DNA of 64,000 nt from an uncultured Alphaproteobacteria bacterium (lineage in GTDB: Bacteria; Pseudomonadota; Alphaproteobacteria; Methylaequorales; Methylaequoraceae), in assembly GCA_902537615.1 (NCBI GenBank), contig CACBBU010000002.1:75334-139333 (forward strand), written 5' to 3'. Shown here in pieces: positions 36,906 through 56,595 of this stretch (positions are counted from its first letter, which is position 1; each line of letters starts with the position of its first letter). The translations under genes and the position numbers were made by a program. Below the pieces are notes generated by a model. It saw only the letters and a list, made by a program, of their open reading frames with translations. It had not been told where the DNA came from and did not search any database.

Positions 36906-39900
36906 ATGTTAAAAGAAATTAACTTTACTAATAAATTAAACGATGGCTCATTTACTAGTAGTCCGCCAGAGATACTTAGCTTTTACTCAGGAAATTCACT
37001 TAAGATAGAAAACTTACCTTCATGGTTACCAAAATCTGATTTTTCTAGAAATAACAGTGACTTAATTGCAACATCTCATGATGGTGATCAGATTATACTT
37101 GTTGATTATTTTACTAATTTTGAATTACCATCATTGTTAACTGAAAACGGTTTACTTTTGAATGGCTCTCTTGTAAGGTCACTAGCTGGTCCCCTAGCTA
37201 AGGGGCAATACGCTCAAGCAACTGATGGTAATGTTCTTTCTATTGGTGAGGTTTCCACTGTTTCTGGTACGGCAAAAGCAACAAGATTAGATGGTACAAC
37301 TACCAATTTAAATGCGGGGGATCCAGTCTTTCAAGGTGATACTATTGAGACTGAAGGTTCAGGAGCTGTAGGTTTAGTTTTTTTAGATAAAACAACACTT
37401 TCTCTATCTGATGGAGGAAAGATGGTTTTAGATGAGTTAGTTTACGATGCAGCAACAGGAACGGGCAGTATAGCTGTTGATATGCTTGAAGGTGCTTTCA
37501 GTTTTGTTAGTGGTGAAATAGCCAAAACCGGACCTGACGCAATGTCAGTTAAAACACCAGTAGCAGTTATAGGTATTAGAGGAACAACTGTTGCTGGAAA
37601 GGCAGCTGTTGAAGGAAATGAAAACAGTTTTACTTTACTGCAAGATGCAGATGGAGGAGTTGGACAAATTGCTGTAAGTAACGATGGAGGCACACAAGTT
37701 TTAGCTCAGGTTGGTGCAACAACAAGTATTTCAAGTTTTACTGCTCCACCACCACCACCAGTAATTTTAACTACAGCACAAATTCAAGCCAATTATGGTA
37801 CTGCACTTAATGTGTTACCCCCAACGCCTGCTGTAGCACCACAGCCACAACCTGCACCACCTCCACAAGAACAAGTTCAGGAAGAACAGGCTCAAGAAGA
37901 AGCTGCTGAAGAGGAAGGTGAAGAAGAAGCCGGTGAAGAACAAGTAACTGAGGAAGGTCCTGCAGAAGAAGAAGGTGAAGGAGAAGGAGAAGAGGGTCCC
38001 CCTGAAGGAGAGGAAGGTCCACCAGTTGGACCTGATGGAGAACCTCTTGCTGAAGGTGAGGGTCCCCCTGAAGGAGAAGAAGGTGGTCCTCCTGAAGGTG
38101 AAGAAGGACCCCCTATTGGACCAGATGGAGAAGTATTAGCTGAAGGAGAAGGGGGTCCACCTCTTGGCCCAGATGGAGAACCGTTACCACCTGGAGAAGG
38201 GGGTCCTCCCGTAGGCCCAGATGGAGAACCATTGCCACCTGGTGAAGGAGGTCCACCTCTTGGCCCAGATGGAGAACCGTTACCACCTGGTGAAGGCGGC
38301 CCACCTCTTGGCCCGGATGGGGAACCATTACCACCTGGAGAAGCTGGCCCTGGTGGCCCTGGAGATTTTGGTCCTGGCGGTCCTGGCGGACCCGGAGATT
38401 TGGGTGGTCCTGGCGGACCATCGCCTGAACAAGAAGAAGTTGCAAGAGAAGCATTTGAAACAGCACTAGCCGATGGGTTAAGTCCAGAGCAAGCTATGGC
38501 AGCAGCTGCAGAAGCCGCTGGTCTTCCAGTTCCTCCTGGAGGCTTTGGACCTGGTGGGCCTGCTGGGCCTGGAGGTTTTGGACCTGGTGGCCCTGGAGAC
38601 TTTGGCCCTGGTGGTCCTGGTGGACCTGGTGGCCCTGGAGACTTTGGCCCTGGTGGCCCCGGAGACTTTGGCCCTGGTGGCCCTGGAGACTTTGGACCTG
38701 GTGGTCCTGGAGATTTTGGACCTGGCGGCCCTGGAGATTTTGGTGATCCTTTTGGTGGTCCTGGTGGATTTGGTGATCCCTTTGCTGGTCCTGGGGATTT
38801 TGGTGATCCTTTTGGTGGTCCAGGTGGCCCTGGTGGACCCGGTGACCCGTTTGGTGGCGGCCCTGATGGATTTGGTGATCCCTTTGGTGGTCCTGGAGGC
38901 CCTGGTGGACCCGGTGATCCGTTTGGTGGCGGCCCTGGTGGATTTGGTGATCCCTTTGGTAGTCCAGGAGGACCGGTTGGTTTAGGCGGCCCTGGTGGTC
39001 CTGGAGATTTTGGACCTGGTGGTCCTGGCGGTTTCGGTGGCCCTGGAGGTCCCGGAGATTTTGGTGGCCCTGGTGGCATGGTACCTGGACAATTTATGGG
39101 TGCTCAACCGCCTGGAACTGCAACATTTGCTCCAGCTGGAGCGTTTGGCTCCCCAATAGTTGGTTTTAGTTCAGGCCCTATTGGAGGTTTTGGCCCTGAT
39201 CCATATGGTGGTCCAATGAGTGGTCCAATGGGTGGTCCTGGAGGATTTGGTGACCCTTTTGGTGGTCCAATGGGAGGACCTGGAGGTTTTGGTGACCCTT
39301 TTGGTGGTCCAATGGGAGGACCTGGAGGTTTTGGTGATCCCTTTGGTGGCCCAATGGGAGGGCCTGGAGGTTTTGGACCTGATCCTTATGGAGGACCTGG
39401 AGGTTTTGGCCCTGATCCATTTGGTGGTCCTATGGGAGGACCCGGAGGTTTTGGTGATCCTTTTGGTGGACCTATGATGGGTGGTACTGAAAATTATGTT
39501 GAACCTATGAATTATTTTTTTGATGATCCTTCTCTATATATGGGTTTTTTCGAACCGGAACTTTTTGAAGTGGAAGAAAGTGGTGGTAGCGGAAGCGGAA
39601 GCGGAAGCGGAAGCGGAAGTGGAAACACTATTACTGGTACTAATAATGTTGACTCTGAAGATAAATCAACATCTACTGATGCATGGAAATTTCTTGGTTA
39701 TAGTGGAAATGATAATTTTAAAGGTGGTAGCGGGAATGATATATTTTTTGGAGGATTAGGAGCCGATGATTTAACTGGTAATGGAGGAAGTGATACCTAT
39801 TTCTTTTCTGATTTTCTTGAGGGTGCTGATACAATTAGGACGTTCAGTGCAGCTGATACTTTAAAATTTGGTTATAATTTTACAAATAATTATTCTCGAT

Positions 39901-40259
39901 CATTAAGCTTTACATCTGATAGTGGTGCAAATGGCTCTGTGTATAATATTGGGGCTAGCAGTGGAATCCTTCCTATTGTTTTTAACTTTACAGCAAATAA
40001 TTCAAATCATAATACATCTGCTGGAGTTGCAAATTTCCTAAGTAATTTTAGAGTTACAACTGATGGAAGCACTGATATATCAACTGTTGAAGATGCTCTT
40101 CTTGTAACTGGAAATGGTGGTACTACAAGTTTATGGGGGTGGCAAAACAGTGCATCTAACGGTACTGTTGAGCAGACTGAGTTAGTTCGTTTAGCTACAC
40201 TTAATAGTTATGATAATGATACTATGGCTGCATCTAATATTGCTATTGGAGTCTTGTAA
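36906..40259 (+). CDS. Large FecR-domain, Gly/Pro-rich, RTX-repeat putative T1SS substrate (1117 aa)
   Basis: No Sec signal; FecR-like region (IGEV..VSG, GDPVFQGD, TPVAVIGIRGT); acidic and G/P repeats; four GGxGxD nonapeptides at 39696-39803. Confidence 0.85.
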   Translation: MLKEINFTNKLNDGSFTSSPPEILSFYSGNSLKIENLPSWLPKSDFSRNNSDLIATSHDGDQIILVDYFTNFELPSLLTENGLLLNGSLVRSLAGPLAKGQYAQATDGNVLSIGEVSTVSGTAKATRLDGTTTNLNAGDPVFQGDTIETEGSGAVGLVFLDKTTLSLSDGGKMVLDELVYDAATGTGSIAVDMLEGAFSFVSGEIAKTGPDAMSVKTPVAVIGIRGTTVAGKAAVEGNENSFTLLQDADGGVGQIAVSNDGGTQVLAQVGATTSISSFTAPPPPPVILTTAQIQANYGTALNVLPPTPAVAPQPQPAPPPQEQVQEEQAQEEAAEEEGEEEAGEEQVTEEGPAEEEGEGEGEEGPPEGEEGPPVGPDGEPLAEGEGPPEGEEGGPPEGEEGPPIGPDGEVLAEGEGGPPLGPDGEPLPPGEGGPPVGPDGEPLPPGEGGPPLGPDGEPLPPGEGGPPLGPDGEPLPPGEAGPGGPGDFGPGGPGGPGDLGGPGGPSPEQEEVAREAFETALADGLSPEQAMAAAAEAAGLPVPPGGFGPGGPAGPGGFGPGGPGDFGPGGPGGPGGPGDFGPGGPGDFGPGGPGDFGPGGPGDFGPGGPGDFGDPFGGPGGFGDPFAGPGDFGDPFGGPGGPGGPGDPFGGGPDGFGDPFGGPGGPGGPGDPFGGGPGGFGDPFGSPGGPVGLGGPGGPGDFGPGGPGGFGGPGGPGDFGGPGGMVPGQFMGAQPPGTATFAPAGAFGSPIVGFSSGPIGGFGPDPYGGPMSGPMGGPGGFGDPFGGPMGGPGGFGDPFGGPMGGPGGFGDPFGGPMGGPGGFGPDPYGGPGGFGPDPFGGPMGGPGGFGDPFGGPMMGGTENYVEPMNYFFDDPSLYMGFFEPELFEVEESGGSGSGSGSGSGSGNTITGTNNVDSEDKSTSTDAWKFLGYSGNDNFKGGSGNDIFFGGLGADDLTGNGGSDTYFFSDFLEGADTIRTFSAADTLKFGYNFTNNYSRSLSFTSDSGANGSVYNIGASSGILPIVFNFTANNSNHNTSAGVANFLSNFRVTTDGSTDISTVEDALLVTGNGGTTSLWGWQNSASNGTVEQTELVRLATLNSYDNDTMAASNIAIGVL
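38151..38342 (+). repeat. Four tandem 48-nt repeats encoding GGPP(L/V)GPDGEPLPPGE
   Basis: Read directly; two degenerate copies lie just upstream. Confidence 0.9.
38540..39480 (+). repeat. Gly/Pro/Phe/Asp low-complexity coding repeats (GPGGPGDF, GGPGGFGDPF, GGPMGGPGGFGDPF)
   Basis: Read directly from the translation; GC-rich but with A/T-biased third codon positions. Confidence 0.9.
39588..39617 (+). repeat. (AGCGGA)x5 encoding a Ser-Gly linker
   Basis: Perfect hexamer tandem repeat, in frame. Confidence 0.9.
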
Positions 40260-40513: not shown

Positions 40514-43213
40514 ATGTACAACACCAAAGTTTTTAACAATTTATCTGAATCAATTTTTGCTGGTAACTCAACAGCAGTTAACAATCTTCCTTCTTGGCTA
40601 TTAAAGTCTGATTTTTCTAGAAACAATACTGACTTAATAGCCACATCTCCAGATGGTGATCAACTTATACTCGTTGACTATTTTACTAATTTTGAATTAC
40701 CAAACTTATATACTATTAATGGACTTCATCTTAAAGGTAATGCTGTAAATTATTTAGCAGGACCGTTAGCAAAGGGGCAATACACTCAAGCTGCTGATGT
40801 TAATATCCTTTCTATTGGTGAGGTATCAACAGTTTCCGGAACTGTAAAATCAACAAGATTAGACGGTACAACAACAAATTTAAATGTAGGAGACCCTGTT
40901 TTTCAAGGAGACACAATTGAGACTGAAGGTTCAGGAGCTGTAGGATTAGTTTTTTTAGATAAAACAACATTTTCTCTCTCTGATGGAGGAAAGATGATTC
41001 TGGATGAGTTGGTTTATGATGCAGCAACGGCAACTGGAAGTATGGTAGTTAATATGGTTGAAGGAGCATTTAGTTTTATAAGTGGTGAAATAGCTAAAAC
41101 TGGACCTGATGCTATGACGCTTGAAACTCCAGTTGTTACAATGGGTATTAGAGGAACAACTGTTGCTGGTAAAGCAGCAGTGGAAGGAAATGAAAATAGT
41201 TTTACCTTACTTCAAGATGCAGATGGTGGAGTTGGACAAATTTCTGTAAGTAATGATGGAGGAACACAAGTTTTAGCTCAGGTGGGAGCTACAACAACTG
41301 TTTCAAGTTTTACTGCAGCACCCCCAGCACCAATAATTTTGTCCGCAGCACAGATTCAAGCTAATTATGGTACTGCACTTAATGTATTACCACCAACTCC
41401 GGCGGTAGCACCACAACCACAAGCTGCTCCTCCCCCTCAAGAAGAAACTCAAGAGGAACAGACTCAAGAAGAGGAGGCTGCAGAAGAAGAAGGTGAAGAA
41501 GAGGGTGGTGAGGAACAAGTGGCAGAGGAAGGTTCTGAAGAAGGAGAAGGTGAGGGTGAAGAAGGTCTACCTGAAGGAGAGGGAGAAGGAGAAGAGGAAG
41601 GAGAAGAGGAAGGAGAAGAGGGTCCACCTGAAGGAGAAGAAGGAGAAATTTCTGATTCTGGTGGGGACTCATTAGCAAGTGATGAAGCAGCAAGTGGACC
41701 TCCAGAGGGTGAAACAGGGTCTGTTACTGAAGAGTCAGGAACATCAGAGGAGCAAGTTGCAGCAGCAGAAGCTTTTGATACAGCACTTGCAGCAGGTGCT
41801 AGTCCAGAGCAAGCTATGGCTGAAGCAGCTGAAGTTGCCGGACTAGAAGGACCAGAGCAGGCTACTTCAATTCAATCAAATAATCCTAATTCTTTATCAA
41901 ACCCAATGTCGGGAAATGCTAACCCAATGATAGCTCCGGTGAACGCTATAATGGCAAGTGGAGCTCCTGCCTATGCGGGAATGATGGGAGTATCAATGGG
42001 TCCAACAGATATGATGAGTGGCCCGGCTGGACCAGCAGCTATGGCAGGACCCTTAATAACAGGTGCAACAGATTTACTTGGAGCGCCTATAGGACCTGCT
42101 TTTGGCGATATATACTCGCAATCTGAAGTTGAAGTAATTCAGGAGTCTTTTTTCTTTGATGATCCAAGTTTGTATAATGTTGATATGGAAGAAGAGGAAC
42201 CAGAAACCACTGAAATTAACTCTTTTTATATTAACGGAACAAGTGACTTTGGAAGAACAATTTCTGATTTTTCTTTGTCTCAAACACTTACAATTAATTT
42301 TACTTTTGATGAACCAGTCTCAACTCACTCTGTAACAAGGTCAAACTTTTATGAATATACTAGCACTGTTGCTACAACATCTTTATCATGGGACTCAAAA
42401 CCATCAACAACAGCACAAATAGTTAATGAAACAGAACCAAATGGTACTTTTGGTTCTGCTCAAGTTATTGCAAGATCAAGATTTAAAATAGCCACAAATT
42501 CCGATGTTGGTGACGATAGTATTCCATGGGTGAAAATACAGGGTGGATACATCAATAACGGCATTGATATTTTTAAGGTGGACCTACAAGCTGGCGAGAC
42601 GTTAACTGTTGATATAGACTATGGTGATTCTTATAGTATAGATTTTAATTCTTATGTAACAATGTGGAATCAAGCCCTATCTTCTATTGTTGCTGAAAAT
42701 GATGATTCTGCTATTTCATTAGGAGGTGCAGGTAGTTCTGGAACAGAGGATTCATATTTTACTTACACTACCAGTACAACAGAGTCATTTTATCTTTTAG
42801 TTGAAGATGCGCCTTATAATAGAAATTCAAGTACAAGAGGTGATTTTGTATTAAATCTTAGTATTTCACCAACAAGTAGTTCTACGGGATTAGGGACAAG
42901 TTCAACCTCGGCTGTGGGAGGTGATAATAAATTACCCTATTTATTTAATTTTACAGAAAACACGAATAATTATAATACAAAGTCATTTAGATCAGATGTC
43001 GTCTCTTCAATAAAATATACTGATTCTACAAGTGGGACGGGCAGTGAAGTTTTTTTGGTTGTAGGTGACGGTACTAATAGTGCTATATGGTTGTGGGATG
43101 ATTTATCTGAAGGATATGGAATATCTACTAACGAACTTACACTTGTAGCAACACTACCAAACTTTGACAATGATACACTTACCGGCTCTGAAATAACATT
43201 TGGTACAATTTAA
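40514..43213 (+). CDS. Second FecR-domain putative T1SS substrate with PPC-like insertion (899 aa)
   Basis: FecR region nearly identical to the 36906 gene; ETEPNGTF..AQ and DIFKVDLQAGETLTVDID (PPC-like); shared C-terminal ELxxxATLxxxDNDT; no RTX nonapeptides. Confidence 0.85.
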   Translation: MYNTKVFNNLSESIFAGNSTAVNNLPSWLLKSDFSRNNTDLIATSPDGDQLILVDYFTNFELPNLYTINGLHLKGNAVNYLAGPLAKGQYTQAADVNILSIGEVSTVSGTVKSTRLDGTTTNLNVGDPVFQGDTIETEGSGAVGLVFLDKTTFSLSDGGKMILDELVYDAATATGSMVVNMVEGAFSFISGEIAKTGPDAMTLETPVVTMGIRGTTVAGKAAVEGNENSFTLLQDADGGVGQISVSNDGGTQVLAQVGATTTVSSFTAAPPAPIILSAAQIQANYGTALNVLPPTPAVAPQPQAAPPPQEETQEEQTQEEEAAEEEGEEEGGEEQVAEEGSEEGEGEGEEGLPEGEGEGEEEGEEEGEEGPPEGEEGEISDSGGDSLASDEAASGPPEGETGSVTEESGTSEEQVAAAEAFDTALAAGASPEQAMAEAAEVAGLEGPEQATSIQSNNPNSLSNPMSGNANPMIAPVNAIMASGAPAYAGMMGVSMGPTDMMSGPAGPAAMAGPLITGATDLLGAPIGPAFGDIYSQSEVEVIQESFFFDDPSLYNVDMEEEEPETTEINSFYINGTSDFGRTISDFSLSQTLTINFTFDEPVSTHSVTRSNFYEYTSTVATTSLSWDSKPSTTAQIVNETEPNGTFGSAQVIARSRFKIATNSDVGDDSIPWVKIQGGYINNGIDIFKVDLQAGETLTVDIDYGDSYSIDFNSYVTMWNQALSSIVAENDDSAISLGGAGSSGTEDSYFTYTTSTTESFYLLVEDAPYNRNSSTRGDFVLNLSISPTSSSTGLGTSSTSAVGGDNKLPYLFNFTENTNNYNTKSFRSDVVSSIKYTDSTSGTGSEVFLVVGDGTNSAIWLWDDLSEGYGISTNELTLVATLPNFDNDTLTGSEITFGTI

Positions 43214-43274: not shown

Positions 43275-44861
43275 ATGTCTTACTGGCTTCAAGTACTTAA
43301 AAATAGTGGATCACTAGGAACAATTATTATTTTATCAGTCTTGATAACTATAATGGGTTTATTAAGCCCTATTTTTATAATTCATATTTTTAATAGATAT
43401 ATATCTTTTGGCCTTGAAGGTACTTTAATTTTTCTAATGTTAGGTGCATTATCAGTAGCTATATTTGAATTTTTTTTTCGTAATTTACGAAACAAAGTCT
43501 TTTCAAAGATAATAATAAATCCGATACAAGTTACAAAGCTTGATTTTATAAAGAATTATTTTACTAGAATTGGTAAGAATAGAAAAAAATTATCTGAATC
43601 TATTGATATCAATAATCAATTTTATCAATATTTATCACCCATAAATCAATCAAATATGTTTGATTCATTATTTGTTATAGTAATAATATTATTTCTTTTT
43701 TTTCTAAGTAAGATTTTAACAGGAATTTTTCTAACAATAATTACTCTATACTTGTTAATACAAAAAAAAATTGATGATAACAAAAAAAGTTTTATTAACA
43801 AAAATAAATTCAGTTCTTATGATAATCAAATAATAAAAGAATTAAGTTTAAATAGTGAATTTCTTGATACACAGGATTCGTTAAAATATGTTGGTTATAA
43901 TTTAAAGCAATATTTAGAAAAAAAATTATTCAATGACTCAAGTTTATCAACTTTTGATAATTATCAATTTTCGTCTAATCATCTTCTTATCCTTTTTTCG
44001 TCAATTGTTATAATTGGTTTTGGGGCAGTACTAGTTGTTAACGGGCAACTTTCTGTTGGAAGCTTAATTGGTTTTAATATTTTTTCTTCAAGAGCGTTAG
44101 TCTTAGCCTCTGGTGCTCAGAGATCGTATTTAAATTTGACTGGTTTAAATACTCTTATAGTATCCTCTTATGAAAAGTTAAAAGGTTCAAAAGAGAGATA
44201 TCAGGGAATGCAATTAAATACTATTACTGGTAATATAAAATTAAATAAAATTGACTTTTCTTATGATAAAAGTGACTTTTTATTTAGAAATTTGAATATT
44301 TCAATTAACCCAGGGCAATTGTTTTGTATCTCTGGTTCAAATGGTAGTGGAAAAACTACTCTTTCAAAAATACTGATGGGAATTTTAGAACCAAGTGCTG
44401 GTGAAGTTCTTGTTGATGGGACTAATTTAAATAAATTATCACTAAAGTGGTGGAAGAAACAAGTAGCCTATATTCCTCAAAACCCAAATATTTTGAATTC
44501 TTCAATTATGGATAATATCCTGCTAGGCAATGATAAATTAAATGAACAAGAAGTGAGTAGATTACTCCAAACTGTGGGTTTGGATCAAAAATTAAAAAAA
44601 ACATCCCTAACTATTCTTGAACCGATTGAGGATAATCTTTCAAAAGGTGTAAAAAAAAAAATTCATTATGCTAGAGCTTTAGCTCAAAATTCTAAAGTTT
44701 TTATAATAGATGATCCATTTGGTTATTTAGATAACCAAGGGATCCAAATAGTACAAAAAATAATTGAATCTTTTAAAAGAGCAAATAAAACAGTAATTTT
44801 ATTCTCAGACAACGATATTTTTTCTAATGTTATAGATGAGAACATTAGGATAGGAGATTAA
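43275..44861 (+). CDS. T1SS ABC transporter (TMD-NBD, no C39 domain; degenerate NBD)
   Basis: HIFNRYIS TMD, LIGFNIFSSR, GSNGSGKTT, YIPQ, LSKGV, IIDDP. Confidence 0.85.
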   Translation: MSYWLQVLKNSGSLGTIIILSVLITIMGLLSPIFIIHIFNRYISFGLEGTLIFLMLGALSVAIFEFFFRNLRNKVFSKIIINPIQVTKLDFIKNYFTRIGKNRKKLSESIDINNQFYQYLSPINQSNMFDSLFVIVIILFLFFLSKILTGIFLTIITLYLLIQKKIDDNKKSFINKNKFSSYDNQIIKELSLNSEFLDTQDSLKYVGYNLKQYLEKKLFNDSSLSTFDNYQFSSNHLLILFSSIVIIGFGAVLVVNGQLSVGSLIGFNIFSSRALVLASGAQRSYLNLTGLNTLIVSSYEKLKGSKERYQGMQLNTITGNIKLNKIDFSYDKSDFLFRNLNISINPGQLFCISGSNGSGKTTLSKILMGILEPSAGEVLVDGTNLNKLSLKWWKKQVAYIPQNPNILNSSIMDNILLGNDKLNEQEVSRLLQTVGLDQKLKKTSLTILEPIEDNLSKGVKKKIHYARALAQNSKVFIIDDPFGYLDNQGIQIVQKIIESFKRANKTVILFSDNDIFSNVIDENIRIGD

Positions 44862-44864
44862 ATT

Positions 44865-49460: not shown

Positions 49461-49463
49461 AGT

Positions 49464-51827
49464 CTATTTACTTGTTGCAACGTAAACACCGTCCCAATCT
49501 TTTGGAGGAGGGGAGGTCTTAAATTCATCAATTCTTTGTTTCATTATTTCATAGTATTCATTCATTAAATTATTACAAAGATTTTTTGCCAAATCCATTT
49601 CATTTAAACACTTTTCCCATTCTTGTCTAAAGTAATTTTTTAGGATATTTTTATGCTTTTCTTCTAAAGTTTTAAACTCATTACTTTTTTTAAACTCTGA
49701 ATCACCAGCTAAAGTAAATATTGTTACAGCTTCTTTTTTTCCTTTAACAGCAATCATATCCAATTGTAATGTTGCATATAAATCTTTTACACTTTCGTTA
49801 GTTTCTGGACCAATTACTGTTTTTACACCATAGCTTTTTGATTGCCCCTCAAGTCTAGCAGCTAGATTAACAGAATCACCAAGAACTGAATAATCAAATC
49901 TCTGGTCAGATCCCATATTACCAACAACACACCCACCAGTGTTTAAACCAATACCAATCTTTAACTCTAAATATTTTTTATTTTCAGATTTCGCTTCCTT
50001 TTCTCTTTCAGCATTTAGATCCGCCATTACAGCATGCATTTTGAGAGTAGCATCACAGGCCATTTTTTCATGACCATCAACATCAATTGGAGCATTCCAA
50101 AAAGCCATAATACAATCTCCCATATATTTATCAATCGTGCCATTAACGTTGATAATTTCATTAGTAAGAGGTGTTAAGAATCTATTTATTAATTTAGTTA
50201 AACCTTGTGGATCCGATTTAAAAGATTCTGAAATAGTGGTAAATCCTCTTACATCACAAAATAAAAATGTCATTTTTTTAGTTTCCCCACCTAAAACTAA
50301 TTTATCAGGATCTTCTGCTAGTTGCTCTACCAATGCCGGAGAAAGATATTGTGAAAAAGCACCGCGAATCTGTTTTTTTTCGTTTGCATCTCTTAAATAG
50401 TTGGCAAAAGTGTTCCCAAAATATATTAAAAAAGTAGAAACACCTGCAAAAGTTGGGTCAAATAATGTTTTTTCTTCCAGAAAAAGCTTTAAACTTATAT
50501 AAAAAGCAGTGCTTATAACCGCGACCAATAAAGAAATATTTACAATCGGACCAAACCTAAGTGCTGATATTGTTATAAAGAACCCCAAAAGTATTGTAAA
50601 AATTCCTTCATAAAACTTCATATTTGTTCCAGATTTTAAGAAGGGAGAACCTGAAATTTTCACTTTATTTTTTTCATTTAGAGCCTCTTCTTCAGTCATT
50701 CCATTTTTAATTGCTTTCTTATACGCTATATCAGCATTCTTTGTGGAAGTATAAAATAATATAGCGGAGATTACTGTATCAATCAGATTAGCGTGTATTT
50801 CAACACCAGGCATTCTATCTTCAACAGGTGTAAACCTAATGTCTTTAAGACCTGTTGCTGATGTTCCAAGAATTCCTAACTTTCCCTGAAGTCTCTCTTT
50901 TCCAACTCTTCCTTTGATAATGTCTGCAGCACTGACATAATATCTTTTCTCTTTTTTAATAGAATCAGATTCACCATAATAAATCCAAACCCTTCCATTT
51001 TCATCTGTAGGAATTGCTGCATTACCAATTGCCTTTGTTTGAATTATAATTTCCTCAACACCGTTTATTCCAGTTCTTGTCGCAATACTGTTACCTTGAA
51101 ATGCAACTCTTATCATTTCTAGACCAAGTGTTGGTCTTACAGTTCCAGCAACATCTGAAATTAACGGTACACGTCTTATAATTCCATCTGGTTCTTCGGC
51201 AACAGACACAGTTCCTGCACCAGATGCTGCTTGCTCAAATTCAGTAACATTAGCCAATAATCCAGGATAGGTTATTAACCAATTTTTTGGATTCTTGTTT
51301 TTACCCAAAAAAACTTTAACAGAGGTATCTCTTATATCATCTCGTTCCGCATCACCAGTAACGTCAAGACCAGAGTGACCAATTACAGTCGGAAAGGTTT
51401 TCATAACATCTCTTGCAATAGACTCATTAGACGGAAGTTTCTTAAGAATATCAGCTACTTTTGGATTTCTTTTTTCTAGATCCCTTGCTATTAAAGTTGG
51501 GGATGTTCTGTCCTTTTCAGCAAATAATACATCTAGTCCAAGAACTAGCATACCAGATTCTTTGGACTTTTGAAAAAGCTCAGCTAAAACTGTTCTGGGC
51601 CAAGGCCATTGACCAATCTCTCGAAGTGACGCCTCATCAATATCAACTATTACAGAATAGGTTTGACCATCTGTAGATCTTGGGTATTTTTTTTGAAGTT
51701 GATCAAAATACTTTAGTCTCATTACTTCAACTACTTGCGGGTCAATAATCCTTACTCCACCTAAAATAATGGCCGCAATTATTGAAAGTAATGTAACTAT
51801 GAGTCTAAAACTTAATTTTAATTTCAT
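49464..51827 (-). CDS. CHASE2-domain membrane adenylate cyclase
   Basis: IVDIDEASL..IGQWPWPR, MPGVEIHAN, three TM helices, FCDVRGFT, DKYMGDCIMAFWNAP, GDSVNLAARLEG; ATG at 51827 lies 1 nt after the HlyD stop. Confidence 0.93.
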   Translation of the reverse strand: MKLKLSFRLIVTLLSIIAAIILGGVRIIDPQVVEVMRLKYFDQLQKKYPRSTDGQTYSVIVDIDEASLREIGQWPWPRTVLAELFQKSKESGMLVLGLDVLFAEKDRTSPTLIARDLEKRNPKVADILKKLPSNESIARDVMKTFPTVIGHSGLDVTGDAERDDIRDTSVKVFLGKNKNPKNWLITYPGLLANVTEFEQAASGAGTVSVAEEPDGIIRRVPLISDVAGTVRPTLGLEMIRVAFQGNSIATRTGINGVEEIIIQTKAIGNAAIPTDENGRVWIYYGESDSIKKEKRYYVSAADIIKGRVGKERLQGKLGILGTSATGLKDIRFTPVEDRMPGVEIHANLIDTVISAILFYTSTKNADIAYKKAIKNGMTEEEALNEKNKVKISGSPFLKSGTNMKFYEGIFTILLGFFITISALRFGPIVNISLLVAVISTAFYISLKLFLEEKTLFDPTFAGVSTFLIYFGNTFANYLRDANEKKQIRGAFSQYLSPALVEQLAEDPDKLVLGGETKKMTFLFCDVRGFTTISESFKSDPQGLTKLINRFLTPLTNEIINVNGTIDKYMGDCIMAFWNAPIDVDGHEKMACDATLKMHAVMADLNAEREKEAKSENKKYLELKIGIGLNTGGCVVGNMGSDQRFDYSVLGDSVNLAARLEGQSKSYGVKTVIGPETNESVKDLYATLQLDMIAVKGKKEAVTIFTLAGDSEFKKSNEFKTLEEKHKNILKNYFRQEWEKCLNEMDLAKNLCNNLMNEYYEIMKQRIDEFKTSPPPKDWDGVYVATSK

Positions 51828-51828
51828 T

Positions 51829-53562
51829 TTATGGCTCCGCAAAACTATTACCTAATGTCCTTATTAAAGGATAAATAAAATAGGTAATAAGTTTTCTTTT
51901 ACCAACTCTAAACTTTCCTGAAACCTTCATTCCTGGCATTAGATTAAATCCAGGCGGTGTGTCTTTCAGCTCATTTCCAGTGATTTGCGCTCTTGCTCTG
52001 TAAAAGTTACCGGAGTTTCCATCTACATCCTCATCTACTGTATCAGCAGAAACATAAATAAGTTTTCCTTTCAACTCTCCATGCTTTTGAGCTGGTAAGG
52101 CGTTTAATTGTATTTTAACTGATGTGTCAGGAATTAATTTACTTATATCAGATGGATCAACATCAAAAACAGTAAGTAACTCAACTCCTGTTGGAACAAG
52201 TGTTACTACACTTTTACCTTTGGTTATTACAGCGCCTGAATAAAGAGAATGAAGGTCTAGTACCATTCCGTCAGAAGGTGCCCTTACAATAACATCAGTT
52301 TGTCGCCTTTCCAGTTTCTTCAAGTCCTCTTGCATACTCATACGTTGATCCTCTAAGGAAACAAGTTCGTCATTTATTCCACCAAAAAACTGGCTTGTGT
52401 ATTCCTTTCTATTGGATTTAAGCTCACTAAGTTTATTACTTGTTTTGGTAAATTCCTTTTCTAAAGATAATCTTTTATTTTTTTCAGCTAAGACCTGTGA
52501 TTCAGCAACTAGATCTAAATCAAAAAGTTCTTTTTTTGAATTTTCAAGCTGCTTTTGAATATCCAACTGTTCCTTTACGTATTTTAAATCATCTTCTGTG
52601 GATGATATTTGTTGATCTAGAGATGCTTTTTTGGCTAAGTATTGATCTTTTTTGTCTTTAAAAATTTTATTTTGTCTTTCATCTTTAGGGTCGCTGACAC
52701 TAATACTCGTTCTTAGTAATGATTGCTTTTTTAATCTATCAATTTTTGAATTTATAACACTAAGCTGATAATTAAGTTTCATTCTATCAGCTTTCTGAAG
52801 GGTTGAATCAAAAGTGAGAAGAGCTTCTCCTTTTTTTATGCTTTGTCCTTTTTTAACATAGATATCTTTAACAACTGAATCAAAGTTTGATTGAACTTCA
52901 ACATTCGGAACAATTGTTGTTATTTTTCCTGATGCAGTAATTGTTGTATCTACTTCAGAGATAGATCCCCACAGAATTAAAAAAAAAACTAAAAAAGCAA
53001 AAGAGTATACGGAATATTTTACAGATTTAGGGACAGCTTTAGATTTTATTCTATCAATATCGTCATCAAATTCATCTAATAACTCATTCATCAATTCAGA
53101 ATTAACTTTTTTCTTCTTTTCTTCTTCGGATAATTCTTTTTTATCGTTATCTTCATCAACCTGGCTAGAATCTGAATCAGAACTGAAAGCATCAACTGAC
53201 AGTTTTTCATTAGCATTTCTTGCGTAGCTTGCTAATTGTTGCATCATATTAAAAGCTGTTTGAGGAGAGTTTTTTAGGTAACCTAATAATGCATCTTTAT
53301 CTATTTCTTTAACTACTGCCTCATCAACAGCTCTAGCCATTGCACTTCTAGGTTGTTTATCTATTAAGGCCATTTCACCAAAAAGAGCATTTTTTTCTAA
53401 AATTGAAAGTGTTACATATTCGTCACCATTAAACTTACAAACTTCAATTTTTCCTTTGACAACTTGGTAAGCATAATCACCTACCTCACCCTCTCTAAAT
53501 AGAACATCTCCAGCAGCTAAATTTCTTAATGCGGGTTGTGTAGTTTTTTTCTGTTTACTCAT
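51829..53562 (-). CDS. cNMP-binding domain fused to HlyD-family membrane fusion protein
   Basis: N-terminal LFREGEVG and FGEMALIDKQPRSA; acidic linker; TM helix; RAPSDGMV, LMPGMKVSG, GKRKLITYFIYP. Confidence 0.9.
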   Translation of the reverse strand: MSKQKKTTQPALRNLAAGDVLFREGEVGDYAYQVVKGKIEVCKFNGDEYVTLSILEKNALFGEMALIDKQPRSAMARAVDEAVVKEIDKDALLGYLKNSPQTAFNMMQQLASYARNANEKLSVDAFSSDSDSSQVDEDNDKKELSEEEKKKKVNSELMNELLDEFDDDIDRIKSKAVPKSVKYSVYSFAFLVFFLILWGSISEVDTTITASGKITTIVPNVEVQSNFDSVVKDIYVKKGQSIKKGEALLTFDSTLQKADRMKLNYQLSVINSKIDRLKKQSLLRTSISVSDPKDERQNKIFKDKKDQYLAKKASLDQQISSTEDDLKYVKEQLDIQKQLENSKKELFDLDLVAESQVLAEKNKRLSLEKEFTKTSNKLSELKSNRKEYTSQFFGGINDELVSLEDQRMSMQEDLKKLERRQTDVIVRAPSDGMVLDLHSLYSGAVITKGKSVVTLVPTGVELLTVFDVDPSDISKLIPDTSVKIQLNALPAQKHGELKGKLIYVSADTVDEDVDGNSGNFYRARAQITGNELKDTPPGFNLMPGMKVSGKFRVGKRKLITYFIYPLIRTLGNSFAEP

Positions 53563-53563
53563 T

Positions 53564-55729
53564 TTAAACAGCCTTTTTAAAAATTTTATGTGATGAAGAT
53601 TCGCCTAAAATAGAACTTTGTTTTTTATAAGTTTCACTAAAAAAGCCTGGTTCATTCTTCAAACTTTCAAACGAACCTTGCTGAGAAATTTTCCCATTAT
53701 CTAAAACAAAAATTTTATTACAAAGTCTTAAATGATAAAGCCTATTCGACACAATAACCACAGTTCTTCCTAAAGCAATATCAGGTAAGCCATCATAAAG
53801 TTTAATTTCACTATCTACATCAAATCCACTCATTGCATCATCAAGAATCAATATTCTTGGATTTCTAATTAACGCTCTTGCAATAGCAAATTTTTGTCTT
53901 AAGCCAGTAGAAATATTTGATGCATTTTCTTCTAAAAAAGTCTCATAAGCATCTGGAAATGATTCAATTTCTTCATGAGCAAAAACTTTTTTTGTAGCCC
54001 AAGTAATTCTATCCATTGAAGAGTTTGGCATTGGTCTAGAAATGTTTTCTCTAATTGTTCCAGGAAAGAAATAGCTTTCTGCACCTACTAAAGACACTTG
54101 AGATCTTATGTGACTTAAATCGAGTAATCTTAAGTCTATGTTATCAAGTCCCACAATACCAGATTGCGGTCTATATAAACCTTGAATTAATTTTGCCATT
54201 GTACTCTTACCGCAACCACTTTTCCCAGTGATTCCAACTATTTGTCTTGGATCAATATCTAAATCTATTTCTTTTAGAATTTTCGTTTCATCATCATAAC
54301 CAAACTCAACCTTTTTAAAATTAATTTGTCCCATTAACTGTGGTTTTTGACCTCTAACAGTTGTCTCAGAATTAGCGTCGACAATACCTGAAACGATTTG
54401 TAATGACTGAACTAATTTTCCTATTTCAGTTTTTAAGGTTACCAAATCAATGATTGGTCTAGAAACTCTACCTGCAAGCATATTAAAACCAACTAAAATA
54501 CCAGCCGAAAGACCTCCTGAAAAAACTAAATGTACACCAACAAAAATGACCATTGCTGTCATTAATTGATTGATAGTGGAGGTTATATTGTTTAAAACAG
54601 AAGATCTTTTTTGCATTTCATCAGAAGCAACTATATAATTAGCTTCTATATCCCTCCATTGGTCTTTTAGGCCTGGTTCCAATGCTAAACCCTTAACATT
54701 TTCAATTCCATTAACACAAACTGAAATAAACTCTTGTCTTTGAGCGTCAGCTTTAGCGAGCCCACCCATTGCGTCTCTTTGTTTTTTTGAATAAAACATT
54801 GAAGCAAGCGCACCTAACAAACTAAAAAATAAAACAACCCCAAATAGAAGCGGACTATAAAAAAAAAGAATTGGAACGAAAACTAAGAGACTTATTGAAT
54901 CTAATCCTGTTGAGAGAATTTTTTGAGTTAATAATGTTTTAATTTGACTGATTTGTGAAGTAAATCTTCTAAAACTCAAAGATTCTCTGTGAAATCTTTG
55001 CATGGGTAAACTTACTAATTTTTCAAAAACTCTCACAGATAGTTTTGCTTCAATTTTTTGAGATAAAAAGTCAAGTAAATAAGACTTTAGGTACCCAAGG
55101 ATTCCATTGAAAATATAAGCAACTACAACACCTGAAGTTATTACATATAACGTAGAGTAAGCCTCATAGTTTACAACCTTATCTAAAACTAGCATCATAA
55201 AAACCGCAGGAATAACTGCAAAAATATTAAGAATTAATGCTACAATAACAACTTGGACAACAACTGATTTATTTCTAAATGATTCTCCAATTAACCACCC
55301 AATTTTAAGCTCACTTGTTTCTTCAAAAATCTTTAATTTAGCTTTCAATAGTACTACAGAACCATCCCAGCCTTTACGTAATTCCTTTAAAGATATTTGT
55401 TGAGGTTTTGGATTTGATATACCAGCGTCTAAACAAAGAATAGATTTTTCATCCTCATTCGTAATCGCTCGCAAGGCAATAATATATCTTCCATTTTTTA
55501 GTTTTAATATTTGCTGTTTTTTTGTTAGAAGCTTTAAGAGTTCATTTTCACTTATTTTTGCAGCTTTTGCTTTTAAGTCAAAAGACTTAGCTAGTTCACA
55601 CATTTCTTTTAGAGATAGTTCTCTATCATCTATTTTAAATCTTTCAGGAATATCATTTGGTCCGATATGAATACCCAATTGTCTAGCAACAAGAATTAAT
55701 GATTTTTGAGAACCACGTATAGCTTCCAT
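53564..55729 (-). CDS. HlyB-type T1SS ABC transporter with inactive C39-like domain (degenerate NBD)
   Basis: C39-like region lacks catalytic Cys/His (SQKSL, GRYII); LVLDKVV TMD; GKSGCGKST; ISTGL; ILDDA; SNRL. Confidence 0.9.
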   Translation of the reverse strand: MEAIRGSQKSLILVARQLGIHIGPNDIPERFKIDDRELSLKEMCELAKSFDLKAKAAKISENELLKLLTKKQQILKLKNGRYIIALRAITNEDEKSILCLDAGISNPKPQQISLKELRKGWDGSVVLLKAKLKIFEETSELKIGWLIGESFRNKSVVVQVVIVALILNIFAVIPAVFMMLVLDKVVNYEAYSTLYVITSGVVVAYIFNGILGYLKSYLLDFLSQKIEAKLSVRVFEKLVSLPMQRFHRESLSFRRFTSQISQIKTLLTQKILSTGLDSISLLVFVPILFFYSPLLFGVVLFFSLLGALASMFYSKKQRDAMGGLAKADAQRQEFISVCVNGIENVKGLALEPGLKDQWRDIEANYIVASDEMQKRSSVLNNITSTINQLMTAMVIFVGVHLVFSGGLSAGILVGFNMLAGRVSRPIIDLVTLKTEIGKLVQSLQIVSGIVDANSETTVRGQKPQLMGQINFKKVEFGYDDETKILKEIDLDIDPRQIVGITGKSGCGKSTMAKLIQGLYRPQSGIVGLDNIDLRLLDLSHIRSQVSLVGAESYFFPGTIRENISRPMPNSSMDRITWATKKVFAHEEIESFPDAYETFLEENASNISTGLRQKFAIARALIRNPRILILDDAMSGFDVDSEIKLYDGLPDIALGRTVVIVSNRLYHLRLCNKIFVLDNGKISQQGSFESLKNEPGFFSETYKKQSSILGESSSHKIFKKAV

Positions 55730-55765
55730 ATCCTTATTTAATCACATAGAGAATTAAAAACAAAT

Positions 55766-55801: not shown

Positions 55802-55836
55802 AAAAGTTGACGAAGTAAACTTTAGATTAATAGTCC

Positions 55837-56595
55837 TTAGACTACATCGTCAGTTGGATCATCAGGTGGTGGAGGCGGAGCCATTCCGTCGCCATCCATA
55901 TCCGCTCCTGGAGGAGGTCCTTCGGGTCCTTCGGGTCCTGGTCCATGATGTGCACCTGCATCATCCATATGAGAGTGCATTCCTCCCATATCGTCGCCTG
56001 GTGGTCCCATTGGTCCATCTGGTCCTGGTCCCATATCCCCTGGAGGTGGTCCCATTGGTCCATCAGGTCCCATCATTGGATCGCCTGGAGGTGGTCCTCC
56101 TGGATCACCTGGAGGTGGTCCGCCTGCTGGTCCATCTGGTCCAAATAATGGATCTGGTCCACCTGGTCCCATATCCCCTGGAGGTGGTCCCATTGGTCCG
56201 TCTGGTCCTGGTCCCATATCTCCTTCAGGAGGTGGTCCCATTGGTCCATCAGGTCCTGGTCCCATATCCCCTGGAGGTGGTCCATCACCAAATGCGGCAT
56301 CAACACTTTCGCCTGCTGCTTCAAAAGCTTGCATGGCGTCCATACCACTGTCAATAGCTGTGTCAAAACCTTCTTGAGCGGCGCTAGCCATGGTATCAAC
56401 CATTTCTGGAGGAGCACCCATATCAGTCATAGCTGCACCTGCTGCTTCAATTGCTGCGGATGCTGCTGCTGATGGATCAGCTCCGCCTTCAATTGCTGCA
56501 GTGTATGCGTCCTCAGCTGCAGTTCCAGCGGCATCTTCCATGGCATCAATTTGATCTTCAGTCATGCCTTCGGGCATGCCCATTTCTTCGGCCAT
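55837..56595 (-). CDS. Highly acidic Ala-rich then Gly/Pro/Met/Asp-rich protein (252 aa), putative T1SS cargo
   Basis: SD AGAAGGA 7 nt before the ATG; own promoter and terminator; lies between TolC and ABC genes. Confidence 0.8.
   Translation of the reverse strand: MAEEMGMPEGMTEDQIDAMEDAAGTAAEDAYTAAIEGGADPSAAASAAIEAAGAAMTDMGAPPEMVDTMASAAQEGFDTAIDSGMDAMQAFEAAGESVDAAFGDGPPPGDMGPGPDGPMGPPPEGDMGPGPDGPMGPPPGDMGPGGPDPLFGPDGPAGGPPPGDPGGPPPGDPMMGPDGPMGPPPGDMGPGPDGPMGPPGDDMGGMHSHMDDAGAHHGPGPEGPEGPPPGADMDGDGMAPPPPPDDPTDDVV

What the first reader, a model, noticed from the sequence alone, without database searches (positions are those of the whole stretch)
38442..56517. One helical motif occurs five times across three cargo proteins and an insertion in the CHASE2 sensor
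Seen, aligned by eye: AREAFETALADGLSPEQAMAAAAEAAG (38442-38522), AAEAFDTALAAGASPEQAMAEAAEVAG (41762-41842), AEDAYTAAIEGGADPSAAASAAIEAAG (56517-56437), AQEGFDTAIDSGMDAMQAFEAAGESVD (56379-56299) and ADIAYKKAIKNGMTEEEAL (50735-50679). The consensus is A-x-x-A/G-[FY]-x-x-A-[LI]-x-x-G-x-[STD]-x-x-x-A. The last copy sits in an approximately 40-aa insertion between the CHASE2 GVEIHAN motif and the TM helices, and is Lys-rich whereas the cargo copies are acidic. Inference: a helix-turn-helix recognition module that links both operons, possibly letting cargo dock on the cyclase sensor.
Basis: partly seen in the sequence, partly recalled or inferred. Interest (0 to 1): 0.87.

Follow-up and report, generated by a model that had tools for sequence, protein, structure and literature searches.

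The report
Shared alpha-hairpin in secreted cargo and sensor
A short acidic helix-turn-helix hairpin, previously undescribed but widespread in exported proteins of marine bacteria and related to the docking helix of LapA-type adhesins, is kept in all three cargo proteins of a cAMP-wired double secretion locus, and a look-alike hairpin has been inserted into the neighbouring membrane sensor, although nothing yet shows that the two touch.

Summary
All five segments are at the stated coordinates.

**Four cargo copies.** These are real, homologous copies of a ~30-residue acidic alpha-hairpin: helix, G-x-[S/D]-P turn, helix.
- They are islands of conservation inside hypervariable low-complexity linkers in every genus of the family.
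- Two tandem copies fold into a confident four-helix domain.
- A profile of the hairpin finds 88 proteins among 1.84 billion. These are enriched for RTX/FecR type I secretion cargo, and one carries up to 12 tandem copies.
- No Pfam, NCBIfam or PDB family covers it.
- An independent profile of the LapA "targeting helix-DPxxxLxx-TAAG" element ranks exactly these four copies top in the proteome. However, LapG is absent from 41 family genomes and AAG is not conserved.

**Fifth copy.** It lies in a real, lineage-specific 39-residue juxtamembrane insertion of the CHASE2 cyclase, which is predicted to be the same kind of hairpin.
- Against: HMMER tests do not link it to the cargo hairpin.
- I cannot separate descent from convergence on an idealised hairpin loop.

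Cargo docking on the sensor remains untested and is topologically awkward.

The parts
38442..38522 (+). Hairpin copy 1, AREAFETALADGLSPEQAMAAAAEAAG. It spans residues 513-539 of the 1117-aa FecR-like/RTX cargo P0001.
   Evidence: It is an island of conservation in orthologues. hhalign result.
41762..41842 (+). Hairpin copy 2, AAEAFDTALAAGASPEQAMAEAAEVAG, in the 899-aa paralogous cargo P0002.
56437..56517 (-). Hairpin copy 3, AEDAYTAAIEGGADPSAAASAAIEAAG. It is the first hairpin of the small acidic cargo P0003.
   Evidence: AlphaFold2 helices 13-36 and 41-58. hhalign score 32.9 against the FecR-cargo hairpin.
56299..56379 (-). Hairpin copy 4, AQEGFDTAIDSGMDAMQAFEAAGESVD. It is the second hairpin of P0003.
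   Evidence: AlphaFold2 helices 63-82 and 87-103. hhalign score 31.6.
56287..56559 (-). Four-helix N-terminal domain of P0003 (residues 13-103), made of two tandem hairpins.
   Evidence: AlphaFold2 on a 10-sequence alignment: core pLDDT 85-92, pTM 0.63.
50679..50735 (-). Hairpin copy 5, ADIAYKKAIKNGMTEEEAL. It spans residues 370-388 of the CHASE2 adenylate/guanylate cyclase P0004.
   Evidence: AlphaFold2 gives helix to K379, turn N380-T383, helix 384-393, pLDDT 88-95. hhalign against cargo.
50643..50759 (-). Lineage-specific 39-residue insertion of the CHASE2 domain, between the GVEIHAN helix and FLKSG/TM2. It is periplasmic and juxtamembrane.
36906..40259 (+). P0001. It has a retention-module-like/FecR head, a Pro/Glu/Gly-Pro disordered stalk with one hairpin, RTX repeats and a C-terminal secretion domain.
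40514..43213 (+). P0002, a paralogue of P0001 with a different middle part and one hairpin.
55837..56595 (-). P0003, a 252-aa cargo candidate free of Lys, Arg and Asn. It has a double-hairpin head, a Pro/Gly/Asp/Met-rich tail, a His cluster and a conserved DDVV end.
49464..51842 (-). P0004, a CHASE2 class III nucleotide cyclase with four TM helices.
35562..36896 (+). TolC-family outer-membrane protein of secretion system 1.
43275..46142 (+). ABC transporter (43275-44861) and HlyD-type adaptor (44865-46142) of secretion system 1.
51829..55729 (-). HlyB-type ABC transporter (53564-55729) and HlyD adaptor fused to a cNMP-binding domain (51829-53562), forming secretion system 2. The transporter has a C39-like domain that lacks the catalytic Cys.
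56702..58027 (-). TolC-family outer-membrane protein of secretion system 2.

Best explanation
**Cargo copies.** The four cargo copies are homologous instances of an undescribed extracytoplasmic alpha-hairpin module of about 30 residues. Its layout is: amphipathic helix ending in h-x-x-A-[LI]-x-x-G, a G-x-[S/D]-P turn (Gly C-cap, Ser/Asp N-cap), then a second helix (E-E-A-[MF]-x-A-A).
- Two hairpins in tandem fold into a four-helix domain of about 90 residues, as at the N-terminus of the small cargo P0003.
- In the two large plug-headed cargo proteins (P0001, P0002), a single hairpin is the only ordered island in a long disordered stalk.
- The module is a relative, or at least a close structural analogue, of the 'targeting helix-DPxxxLxx' element that follows the retention module of LapA-type adhesins and serves there as a docking site for a partner protein.

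**Inferred function.** I infer that it is a protein-protein docking or pairing element that works outside the cytoplasm. A lone hairpin cannot bury its hydrophobic face by itself, so it most likely packs against a second hairpin (P0001 with P0002, with itself, or with P0003) or against an unidentified partner.

**Fifth copy.** This copy is a real 39-residue insertion in the periplasmic, membrane-proximal end of the CHASE2 sensor, specific to this family of streamlined marine alphaproteobacteria. It has the same hairpin geometry and the same conserved positions.
- Whether it descends from the cargo hairpin or converged on the same idealised loop is open.
- Its simplest role is to extend and pair the juxtamembrane helices of the cyclase dimer.

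**Shown versus inferred.**
- Shown: the sequences, their conservation, the insertion, the predicted fold, the distribution and the profile similarities.
- Inferred: the docking or pairing function, the location of the cargo hairpins, and any link to the sensor.
For: **Coordinates and uniqueness:**

**Conservation.** 14 of 27 hairpin positions are invariant in nine FecR-type cargo proteins from several genera, while the flanks cannot be aligned.

**Homology among the cargo copies.** hhalign scores are 31.6-33.0.

**Fold.**
- The P0003 N-domain has four helices with core pLDDT 85-92.
- The sensor has helix 346-379, turn 380-383 and helix 384-393, with pLDDT 88-95.

**Distribution.**
- 88 hits at E<=1e-3 in 1.84e9 proteins, 12 of them at E<=1e-10.
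- Up to 12 tandem copies in one protein.
- 14 hits with RTX repeats and 11 with FecR.
- Other hits carry Sec signal peptides or a lipobox.
- A cargo protein with at least three copies lies beside an ABC-HlyD-CHASE2 cyclase block in a distant lineage.

**LapA link.**
- A profile of 19 LapA-type targeting elements matches the cargo profile: score 24.0, probability 86%, P 5e-6.
- It ranks the four cargo hairpins 1-4 among 73 generic hairpin-turn sites of the proteome.
- The heads of P0001 and P0002 match the first half of the retention_LapA model weakly.
- The literature defines the element as targeting helix plus [T/A/P]AAG (10.1101/198937; PMC13090378).

**Fifth copy:**. Hairpin-shaped insertions of another CHASE2 clade at the same site do not resemble the cargo hairpin (scores 7-13).
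Against: - No experiment bears on the function.
- HMMER profile-versus-sequence tests do not connect the sensor insertion to the cargo hairpin. They also fail to connect the P0003 hairpins to a FecR-cargo-only profile, so the test is conservative for these biased sequences.
- None of the 88 database hits is a CHASE2 protein.
- The LapA-element profile does not pick out the sensor insertion: rank 8, score 10.2.
- The best PDB sequence matches of the double hairpin are de novo designed helical repeat proteins with 'GASPEL' loops. The pattern is therefore close to an idealised helix-loop-helix connection, which favours convergence.
- Foldseek finds no significant fold match, so the four-helix packing rests on a 10-sequence AlphaFold2 model only.
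- One lineage has lost the hairpin from its large cargo.
Confidence: 0.6

Rival explanations
1. The sensor copy is convergent. The CHASE2 insertion would be an ordinary juxtamembrane helical hairpin that happens to use the same energetically ideal helix C-cap / N-cap loop (h-x-x-[AS]-[LI]-x-x-G-x-[ST]-x-E-E-A). It would act as a spacer or as a dimer contact of the cyclase, with no evolutionary or physical link to the cargo.
For: - Designed helical repeat proteins use the same loop.
- The same site of CHASE2 has taken up unrelated helical insertions of 36-106 residues in another clade, so it is a permissive hot spot.
- HMMER tests do not link the sensor copy to the cargo.
- There is no co-variation with the cargo hairpins.
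- The second helix is only 10 residues long, against 18 in cargo.
- The composition is opposite.
Against: - The profile-profile score of 28.3 is far above all nulls.
- It is the best non-cargo match in the whole proteome, and it lies in the same locus.
- Three separate cargo profiles align to it in one register.
- The other clade's hairpin insertions score in the noise.
Confidence: 0.4
2. The cargo hairpin docks on the sensor hairpin, forming a hetero four-helix unit or competing with the pairing inside the sensor dimer. The cyclase would then read out cargo that is parked in, or released from, the secretion channel.
For: - The same motif occurs in the cargo of both operons and in the sensor encoded between them.
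- Charges are complementary.
- Single hairpins need a partner.
- CHASE2 sensors are commonly encoded next to FecR-domain proteins and type I secretion genes (PMC5192318).
- The cargo motif resembles a known periplasmic docking element.
Against: - Topology: with a LapA-like plug, the hairpins of P0001 and P0002 lie 145-210 residues past the head and would be outside the outer membrane, whereas the sensor hairpin is periplasmic.
- There is no co-variation.
- The insertion persists where the large cargo lost its hairpin.
- Hairpin cargo exists with an insertion-free CHASE2 cyclase or with no cyclase nearby.
Confidence: 0.1
3. The cargo motif is a protease release site of the LapA type. A periplasmic protease would bind the helix and cut at the Ala-Ala of EAAG, releasing the cargo.
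For: - Profile similarity to the LapG-targeting element.
- EAAG ends three of the four copies in the window.
- The heads are retention-module-like.
Against: - No Peptidase_C93 (LapG) is found in this genome or in 40 others of the family, nine of which are at least 90% complete.
- The residue before AAG is Glu, not T/A/P. P0002 has EVAG.
- Orthologues have AAGG, ATVG, ATAG and SVAG, and distant homologues have no AAG.
- The motif lies 145-210 residues after the head instead of about 30.
- The motif occurs in tandem arrays.
Confidence: 0.06
4. Chance resemblance of Ala-rich low-complexity helices, with no real motif.
For: The cargo proteins are extreme in composition (52% GC in a 27% GC genome; many Ala). 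HMMER's composition correction removes much of the score.
Against: - Invariant, position-specific residues sit within unalignable flanks.
- The hits in 1.84e9 proteins are specific hairpins, not poly-Ala.
- An independent LapA profile picks all four copies.
- The fold is predicted with confidence.
Confidence: 0.03

Closest known systems
LapG-targeting element of LapA/MpIBP-type RTX adhesins ('Helix 1 - DPxxxLxx - [T/A/P]AAG' after the N-terminal retention module; Smith et al., bioRxiv 10.1101/198937; PMC13090378)
   Same: - It sits in type I secreted proteins with a retention-module-like head.
- It follows the same pattern, h-x-x-A-[IL]-x-x-G-x-[DS]-P-x-x-x-h-x-A.
- Profile-profile score is 24.0 (probability 86%), and all four cargo copies rank top with the LapA profile.
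- It acts as a docking site for another protein.
   Different: - There is no LapG or LapD in the family.
- The di-alanine is not conserved.
- It lies far from the head.
- It occurs once here, but in tandem arrays of 2-12 in relatives.
- It also occurs in small cargo without a head, and in Sec-exported proteins and lipoproteins.
- The locus is wired to cAMP/cGMP rather than c-di-GMP.
Idealised helix-loop-helix connections of de novo designed helical repeat proteins (PDB 8g9j THR1, 8g9k THR2; 'GASPEL' loops)
   Same: The same Gly C-cap / Ser-Pro-Glu N-cap loop joins two helices. These are the only PDB sequence matches of the double hairpin (E 1.4e-7 and 3e-4). Foldseek's best, non-significant hits are also designed repeat proteins.
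   Different: They are artificial proteins. The resemblance is one of local structure rules, not of descent or function.
HlyA/HlyB/HlyD/TolC haemolysin-type secretion (ABC transporter with a C39-like domain) and its C-terminally targeted substrates
   Same: - The ABC transporter next to P0003 has a C39-like domain without the catalytic Cys.
- The cargo has no Sec signal and has a conserved C-terminal end.
   Different: - The cargo is small, has no RTX repeats, and carries an N-terminal double hairpin.
- The adaptor carries a cNMP-binding domain.
CHASE2 sensors paired with FecR-domain proteins (BiofilmReg operon of Burkholderia, PMC5192318; CyaD1/CyaD2/CyaK of Sinorhizobium meliloti, PMC5498481)
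   Same: A CHASE2 receptor is encoded beside FecR-domain proteins. This adjacency is seen in at least 12 of 68 non-family CHASE2 cyclase loci examined here.
   Different: In this locus the FecR-like domains are the heads of secreted cargo. The sensor also carries an extra hairpin that typical CHASE2 domains lack.

Membership tests
LapA-type LapG-cleavable N-terminal element | N-terminal retention module (NCBIfam NF033682) | tested here: inconclusive
   P0001 and P0002 match model positions 4-68 of 145 with 26 bits, E 7e-6 to 9e-6, below the 50-bit cut-off. Proteins with the same type of N-terminal extension pass the cut-off in two other genomes (L137, L138). P0003 has no such head.
LapA-type LapG-cleavable N-terminal element | Targeting helix followed by DPxxxLxx | tested here: met
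   hhalign of the cargo hairpin profile against 19 LapA-type elements gives score 24.0, probability 86%, P 5e-6, in the expected register. The four cargo copies rank 1-4 of 73 candidate sites. This is met only at the level of profile similarity. The NCBIfam HMM itself does not hit the peptides.
LapA-type LapG-cleavable N-terminal element | [T/A/P]AAG di-alanine cleavage site | tested here: not met
   The window has EAAG three times and EVAG once. Orthologues have AAGG, GAAG, ATVG, ATAG, SVAG and AAGT. Distant homologues lack AAG.
LapA-type LapG-cleavable N-terminal element | LapG protease (Peptidase_C93, PF06035) encoded in the genome | tested here: not met
   0 of 1 and 0 of 41 family genomes, 9 of them at least 90% complete. 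The control genome Caulobacter is positive.
LapA-type LapG-cleavable N-terminal element | Element lies within a few tens of residues after the retention module | tested here: not met
   The hairpin starts at residue 513 of P0001 and about 435 of P0002. The head ends near residue 300 and 290 respectively.
Double-glycine leader peptides cut by C39 peptidase ABC transporters | Catalytic Cys in the C39 domain of the transporter | tested here: not met
   The N-terminus reads GSQKSLILVARQLG, with no Cys at the catalytic position. It is a HlyB-type C39-like domain.
Type I secretion substrates | Encoded with ABC transporter, HlyD adaptor and TolC-family protein; no Sec signal; C-terminal secretion domain; RTX repeats in many | tested here: met
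   Gene order. RTX repeats are present in P0001 (25.5 bits, cut-off 23). P0001 and P0002 share conserved C-terminal domains with P0053, P0071 and P0073. P0002 and P0003 have no RTX hit, so for them the assignment rests on gene context.
CHASE2 sensor domain (PF05226) | Match to the Pfam model between TM1 and a block of three TM helices | tested here: met
   162.6 bits, residues 29-365. TM helices at 12-33, 408-429, 432-457 and 464-496 in the model. The hairpin is an insertion relative to the family.
Known helical repeat families (TPR, Sel1, HEAT and others in Pfam/NCBIfam) or any solved structure | Significant match to a curated model or PDB chain | tested here: not met
   No relevant Pfam or NCBIfam hit up to E = 10. 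There is no PDB hit for the single hairpin and only designed proteins for the double hairpin. Foldseek gives E >= 1.

The most novel reading that the evidence does not exclude
The sensor hairpin would be a copy or mimic of the cargo's docking helix. Cargo hairpin and sensor hairpin would then pair, or compete for one partner, in the periplasm. The CHASE2 cyclase would thereby sense whether cargo N-termini are parked in the secretion channels and answer with cAMP, which in turn gates the cNMP-binding adaptor of the second secretion system. This would be a protease-free, cAMP-based counterpart of the LapD-LapG-LapA circuit, and it would name a first physiological ligand for a CHASE2 domain.
Probability: 0.1. 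Interest if true: 0.85.

Novelty: new variant of a known kind. Interest (0 to 1): 0.55.

Why it matters
- **An undescribed module.** The hairpin is a compact, recognisable module that no domain library holds. It marks a large set of type I secreted and other exported proteins of marine bacteria, including an abundant, streamlined alphaproteobacterial lineage that spends about 2% of its genome on this locus.
- **A wider docking device.** Its similarity to the LapG-targeting helix suggests that 'docking helices' behind plug-type heads are a general device of retained secretion substrates. They would also exist in bacteria that have neither LapG nor c-di-GMP control, which points to partners still to be found.
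- **A testable sensor link.** The look-alike insertion in the CHASE2 sensor gives a concrete, cheap experiment on a sensor domain whose ligands are unknown.
- **Practical use.** A profile of the double hairpin would improve annotation of proteins that are now 'hypothetical'.

Tried and rejected
1. **LapG cleavage site.** Rejected as membership: there is no Peptidase_C93 in 41 genomes and AAG is not conserved.
2. **Double-glycine leader cut by the C39 domain.** Rejected: the domain lacks the catalytic Cys.
3. **Chance similarity of Ala-rich helices.** Rejected.
4. **Pfam and NCBIfam scans of the peptides up to E = 10.** Nothing relevant.
5. **PDB sequence search and Foldseek.** Only designed repeat proteins and non-significant bundles.
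6. **HMMER profiles.** I built profiles from 4, 19 or 9 cargo copies and from the sensor insertion. None links sensor and cargo significantly. The FecR-cargo-only profile also misses the P0003 hairpins, so composition correction makes this test weak.
7. **Common origin with other CHASE2 insertions.** I asked whether the family's insertion shares an origin with helical insertions of another CHASE2 clade at the same site. There is no sequence similarity, and the tree needs two changes.
8. **More divergent or Ala-rich versions of the insertion.** A search of 5.8e9 proteins returned 164 proteins, and all 120 listed are 72-92% identical to the query in that region.
9. **Co-variation of the sensor hairpin with cargo hairpin types.** None seen.
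10. **Literature.** No paper holds CHASE2 together with type I secretion and adenylate cyclase.

Full report
**Setting.** The window lies in a 1.23-Mb, 27% GC, 79%-complete genome. Its close relatives are deposited as uncultured Alphaproteobacteria, 'Pelagibacteraceae' or 'Rickettsiales bacterium' single-cell and metagenome assemblies. Two convergent operons fill 32.4-58.0 kb.
- On the + strand:
  - a GAF-GAF-PAS cyclase;
  - an HD protein;
  - a TolC-family protein;
  - two paralogous cargo proteins, P0001 (1117 aa) and P0002 (899 aa);
  - an ABC transporter;
  - a HlyD adaptor.
- On the - strand:
  - a TolC-family protein;
  - the 252-aa acidic P0003;
  - a HlyB-type ABC transporter whose C39-like domain lacks the catalytic Cys;
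  - a HlyD adaptor fused to a cNMP-binding domain;
  - the CHASE2 cyclase P0004;
  - two cNMP-binding proteins;
  - a DUF1538 transporter and a P-II-like protein.
- P0001 and P0002 have a FecR-like head that weakly matches the first half of the LapA retention module (26 bits, below the cut-off). Long Pro/Glu/Gly-rich stalks follow, and P0001 also has RTX repeats.
- The whole arrangement is syntenic in every genus of the family that I examined.

**The observation.**
A much looser pattern has five hits in 433,000 ORF residues, and four of them are these copies. Because the consensus was fitted to the data, I relied on other tests.

**The four cargo copies are one real module.**
- In orthologues from several genera the hairpin of the large cargo is an island of conservation. 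14 of 27 positions are invariant (A.EAF..A.A.G..PE.AMA.AA), while the flanks cannot be aligned.
- The small cargo keeps two copies in its N-terminal 105 residues, although one sub-lineage has a diverged version.
- Profile-profile comparison gives 31.6-33.0 (P 5e-8 to 1e-7) between the large-cargo hairpin and each small-cargo hairpin, and between the two small-cargo hairpins.
- AlphaFold2 on a 10-sequence alignment folds residues 13-103 of P0003 into four helices (13-36, 41-58, 63-82, 87-103), with core pLDDT 85-92 and pTM 0.63.
- The turn is a Gly C-cap followed by a Ser/Asp N-cap and Pro.

**Distribution.** A 33-column profile of 20 copies, searched against 1.84 billion representative proteins, gave 88 hits at E<=1e-3 and 12 at E<=1e-10.
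- The hits are specific hairpins, not generic Ala-rich helices. Examples are FEEALDNGASPEEAFDAA, AFRQALANGASDEEAFDAA and VYNDALENGATPEEAFAAA. They usually come in pairs, and one protein has 12.
- Of 86 hits scanned, 14 have RTX repeats and 11 have a FecR domain, often with the same head, stalk and tail plan as P0001 (P0053, P0071, P0073).
- Five hits combine a Sec signal peptide, EF-hands and a C2H2-like Cys/His motif. One is a lipoprotein. Many are small P0003-like proteins.
- The module therefore belongs to exported proteins.
- In a distant alphaproteobacterial contig, a cargo protein with at least three copies precedes an ABC-HlyD-CHASE2 cyclase block whose CHASE2 has no insertion.
- Other hairpin cargo has a TolC-cargo-ABC-HlyD operon, or nothing related, within 10 kb.
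- P0003 itself has only 13 relatives in 5.8 billion proteins, none of them named.
- No Pfam, NCBIfam or PDB family covers the hairpin. Foldseek finds nothing significant.
- The only PDB sequence matches of the double hairpin are de novo designed helical repeat proteins with 'GASPEL' loops. The turn is therefore close to an idealised helix-loop-helix connection.

**Link to LapA.**
- The literature describes, behind the retention module of LapA, a 'Helix 1 - DPxxxLxx - TAAG' element that LapG binds and cuts (10.1101/198937). It also describes a 'targeting helix' plus [T/A/P]AAG (PMC13090378).
- I collected 19 such elements from genomes of the phylum, for example DLAAIQQAILAGADPTEILEATAAG.
- Their profile matches the cargo hairpin profile with score 24.0, probability 86% and P 5e-6, in the expected register.
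- Used on its own against 73 generic hairpin-turn sites of this proteome, it puts the four cargo copies in ranks 1-4 (18.3-14.6; the next is 11.9).
- Membership nevertheless fails on several counts:
  - LapG is absent from this genome and from 40 others of the family.
  - The di-alanine is not conserved.
  - The element lies 145-210 residues after the head.
  - It forms tandem arrays.
- I therefore read the cargo hairpin as working like, and possibly descended from, a docking helix of retained type I substrates, with a different and unknown partner.

**The sensor copy.**
- Relative to 24 CHASE2 cyclases at about 40-51% identity, all family members carry 39 extra residues between the GVEIHAN helix and the FLKSG segment that leads into TM2.
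- A second clade has unrelated insertions of 36-106 residues at the same site.
- On a tree built without these columns, the family is nested among insertion-free sequences. Two events are therefore needed.
- The family's version is common in marine metagenomes: 164 proteins were found, and all 120 listed are 72-92% identical in this region, with no intermediates.
- AlphaFold2 (43 sequences, pLDDT 86) extends the last CHASE2 helix to K379, turns at N380-G381-M382-T383, and adds a short helix at 384-393 before TM2 (408-429). pLDDT is 88-95 throughout.
- The geometry and the register (A-I-x | x-G-x-[T/D] | helix) are those of the cargo hairpin.
- The positions that are conserved in the insertion across the family ([YF], [AS], [IL], G, [ST], E, A) are the ones shared with the cargo.

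**Is the sensor copy the same motif?**
- Evidence for:
  - hhalign of cargo profile against insertion profile gives 28.3, probability 90.6% and P 1.3e-6.
  - 300 column shuffles average 7.3 with a maximum of 15.0.
  - Among 530 windows from nine other protein families of the same loci, the four top windows are all the insertion, and the best unrelated one scores 14.6.
  - Three separate cargo profiles align to it in one register, with scores 25.9, 18.6 and 20.0.
  - The hairpin-like insertions of the other CHASE2 clade score 7-13.
  - Among 72 generic hairpin-turn sites of the proteome, the insertion is the best non-cargo match (23.8; the next are 18.1 and 17.0).
- Evidence against:
  - HMMER profiles do not retrieve it.
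  - No CHASE2 protein is among the 88 database hits.
  - The LapA profile ranks it eighth.
  - The second helix is short.
  - The loop is an idealised one.
- I conclude that the resemblance is real and specific enough to be worth testing. Descent and convergence cannot be told apart with the present data.

**Docking on the sensor.**
- If the heads of P0001 and P0002 plug the TolC-family channel as in LapA, some 40-50 residues span the channel. The hairpins, 145-210 residues further on, would then be outside the cell, while the sensor hairpin is periplasmic. This is an inference from the LapA model.
- The sensor hairpin does not change between genomes with canonical and diverged P0003 hairpins.
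- It is kept where the large cargo lost its hairpin.
- Class III cyclases act as dimers (established knowledge), so two sensor hairpins may pair with each other.
- The one cargo whose hairpins could stay periplasmic is P0003, whose double hairpin is at the extreme N-terminus, the last part to leave the cell. Nothing tests this.

**Verdict.**
- The module is real, undescribed as a family, and related to a known docking element.
- The sensor copy is a genuine, lineage-specific look-alike.
- The proposed docking is possible but unsupported.
- Earlier notes of this scan on related genomes describe the same cAMP-wired secretion locus and plug-headed cargo. They do not mention the hairpin.

Noticed in passing
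window 58265-58906 (+): A 213-aa Sel1-repeat protein with an N-terminal signal peptide ([18 protein letters not shown]). It is divergently placed next to the second TolC-family gene and is syntenic in most family loci. Sel1/TPR-type adaptors bind helical peptides, so it is a candidate partner for the cargo hairpins.
   Followed up: partly
genome contig C19, 16054-16674 (-), cut by the contig end: A partial ORF with Ser/Lys-rich hairpin-like repeats (LIDSGLSEDEAL, LTDGLTVKEAI, ISQGLSVEDAI). It scores just below the sensor insertion against both the cargo and the insertion profiles.
   Followed up: partly
window 55837-55990 (-), C-terminal part of P0003: The His/Met cluster MHSHMDDAGAHHG of P0003 resembles the second half of the C2H2-like motif (CGECD..EEMHQHMEEHH) of Sec-exported hairpin proteins found in the database search (P0034, P0036, P0042, P0049). 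P0003 is also Met-rich. This hints at metal binding.
   Followed up: no
loci L054-L064, L075 (CHASE2 cyclases of another clade): The site between the GVE[IV]HAN helix and TM2 is a hot spot. Unrelated helical insertions of 36, 37, 46 and 106 residues occur there in a second clade.
   Followed up: yes
loci L045-L112: CHASE2 cyclases of many Rhodospirillales-like genomes (Terasakiella, Thalassospira, Novispirillum and others) are flanked by HlyD, ABC and TolC-family genes. In at least 12 of 68 loci a FecR-domain protein is also present.
   Followed up: partly
L137, L138 (genomes G214, G270): Proteins with the same long N-terminal extension as P0001 (..DL.I....G....I..YF..PP.L.T..G..L..) pass the retention_LapA cut-off for model positions 3-68. 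This ties the P0001-type head to the LapA retention module family.
   Followed up: partly
genome G028, contig C3 22349-24588: In one family genome the CHASE2 cyclase region matches only in pieces that hold many stop codons (8 TGA and 13 TAA in one piece). It is either a decayed copy or a poor assembly.
   Followed up: no
L045, L058: Two contigs deposited as Flavobacteriaceae/Flavobacteriales MAGs carry CHASE2 cyclases that nest inside alphaproteobacterial clades. This is probably a binning error.
   Followed up: no
window 38001-40000: The cargo genes reach 52% GC in a 27% GC genome, because they encode almost only Ala, Gly, Pro, Asp and Glu. The hairpin segments contain no Lys.
   Followed up: partly
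locus L043, 18079-21024 (-): In the most divergent family lineage the large cargo has lost the Ala-rich hairpin (only ..LIESAAEEELLSEQALADIN.. remains). The sensor insertion and the small-cargo hairpins persist.
   Followed up: yes
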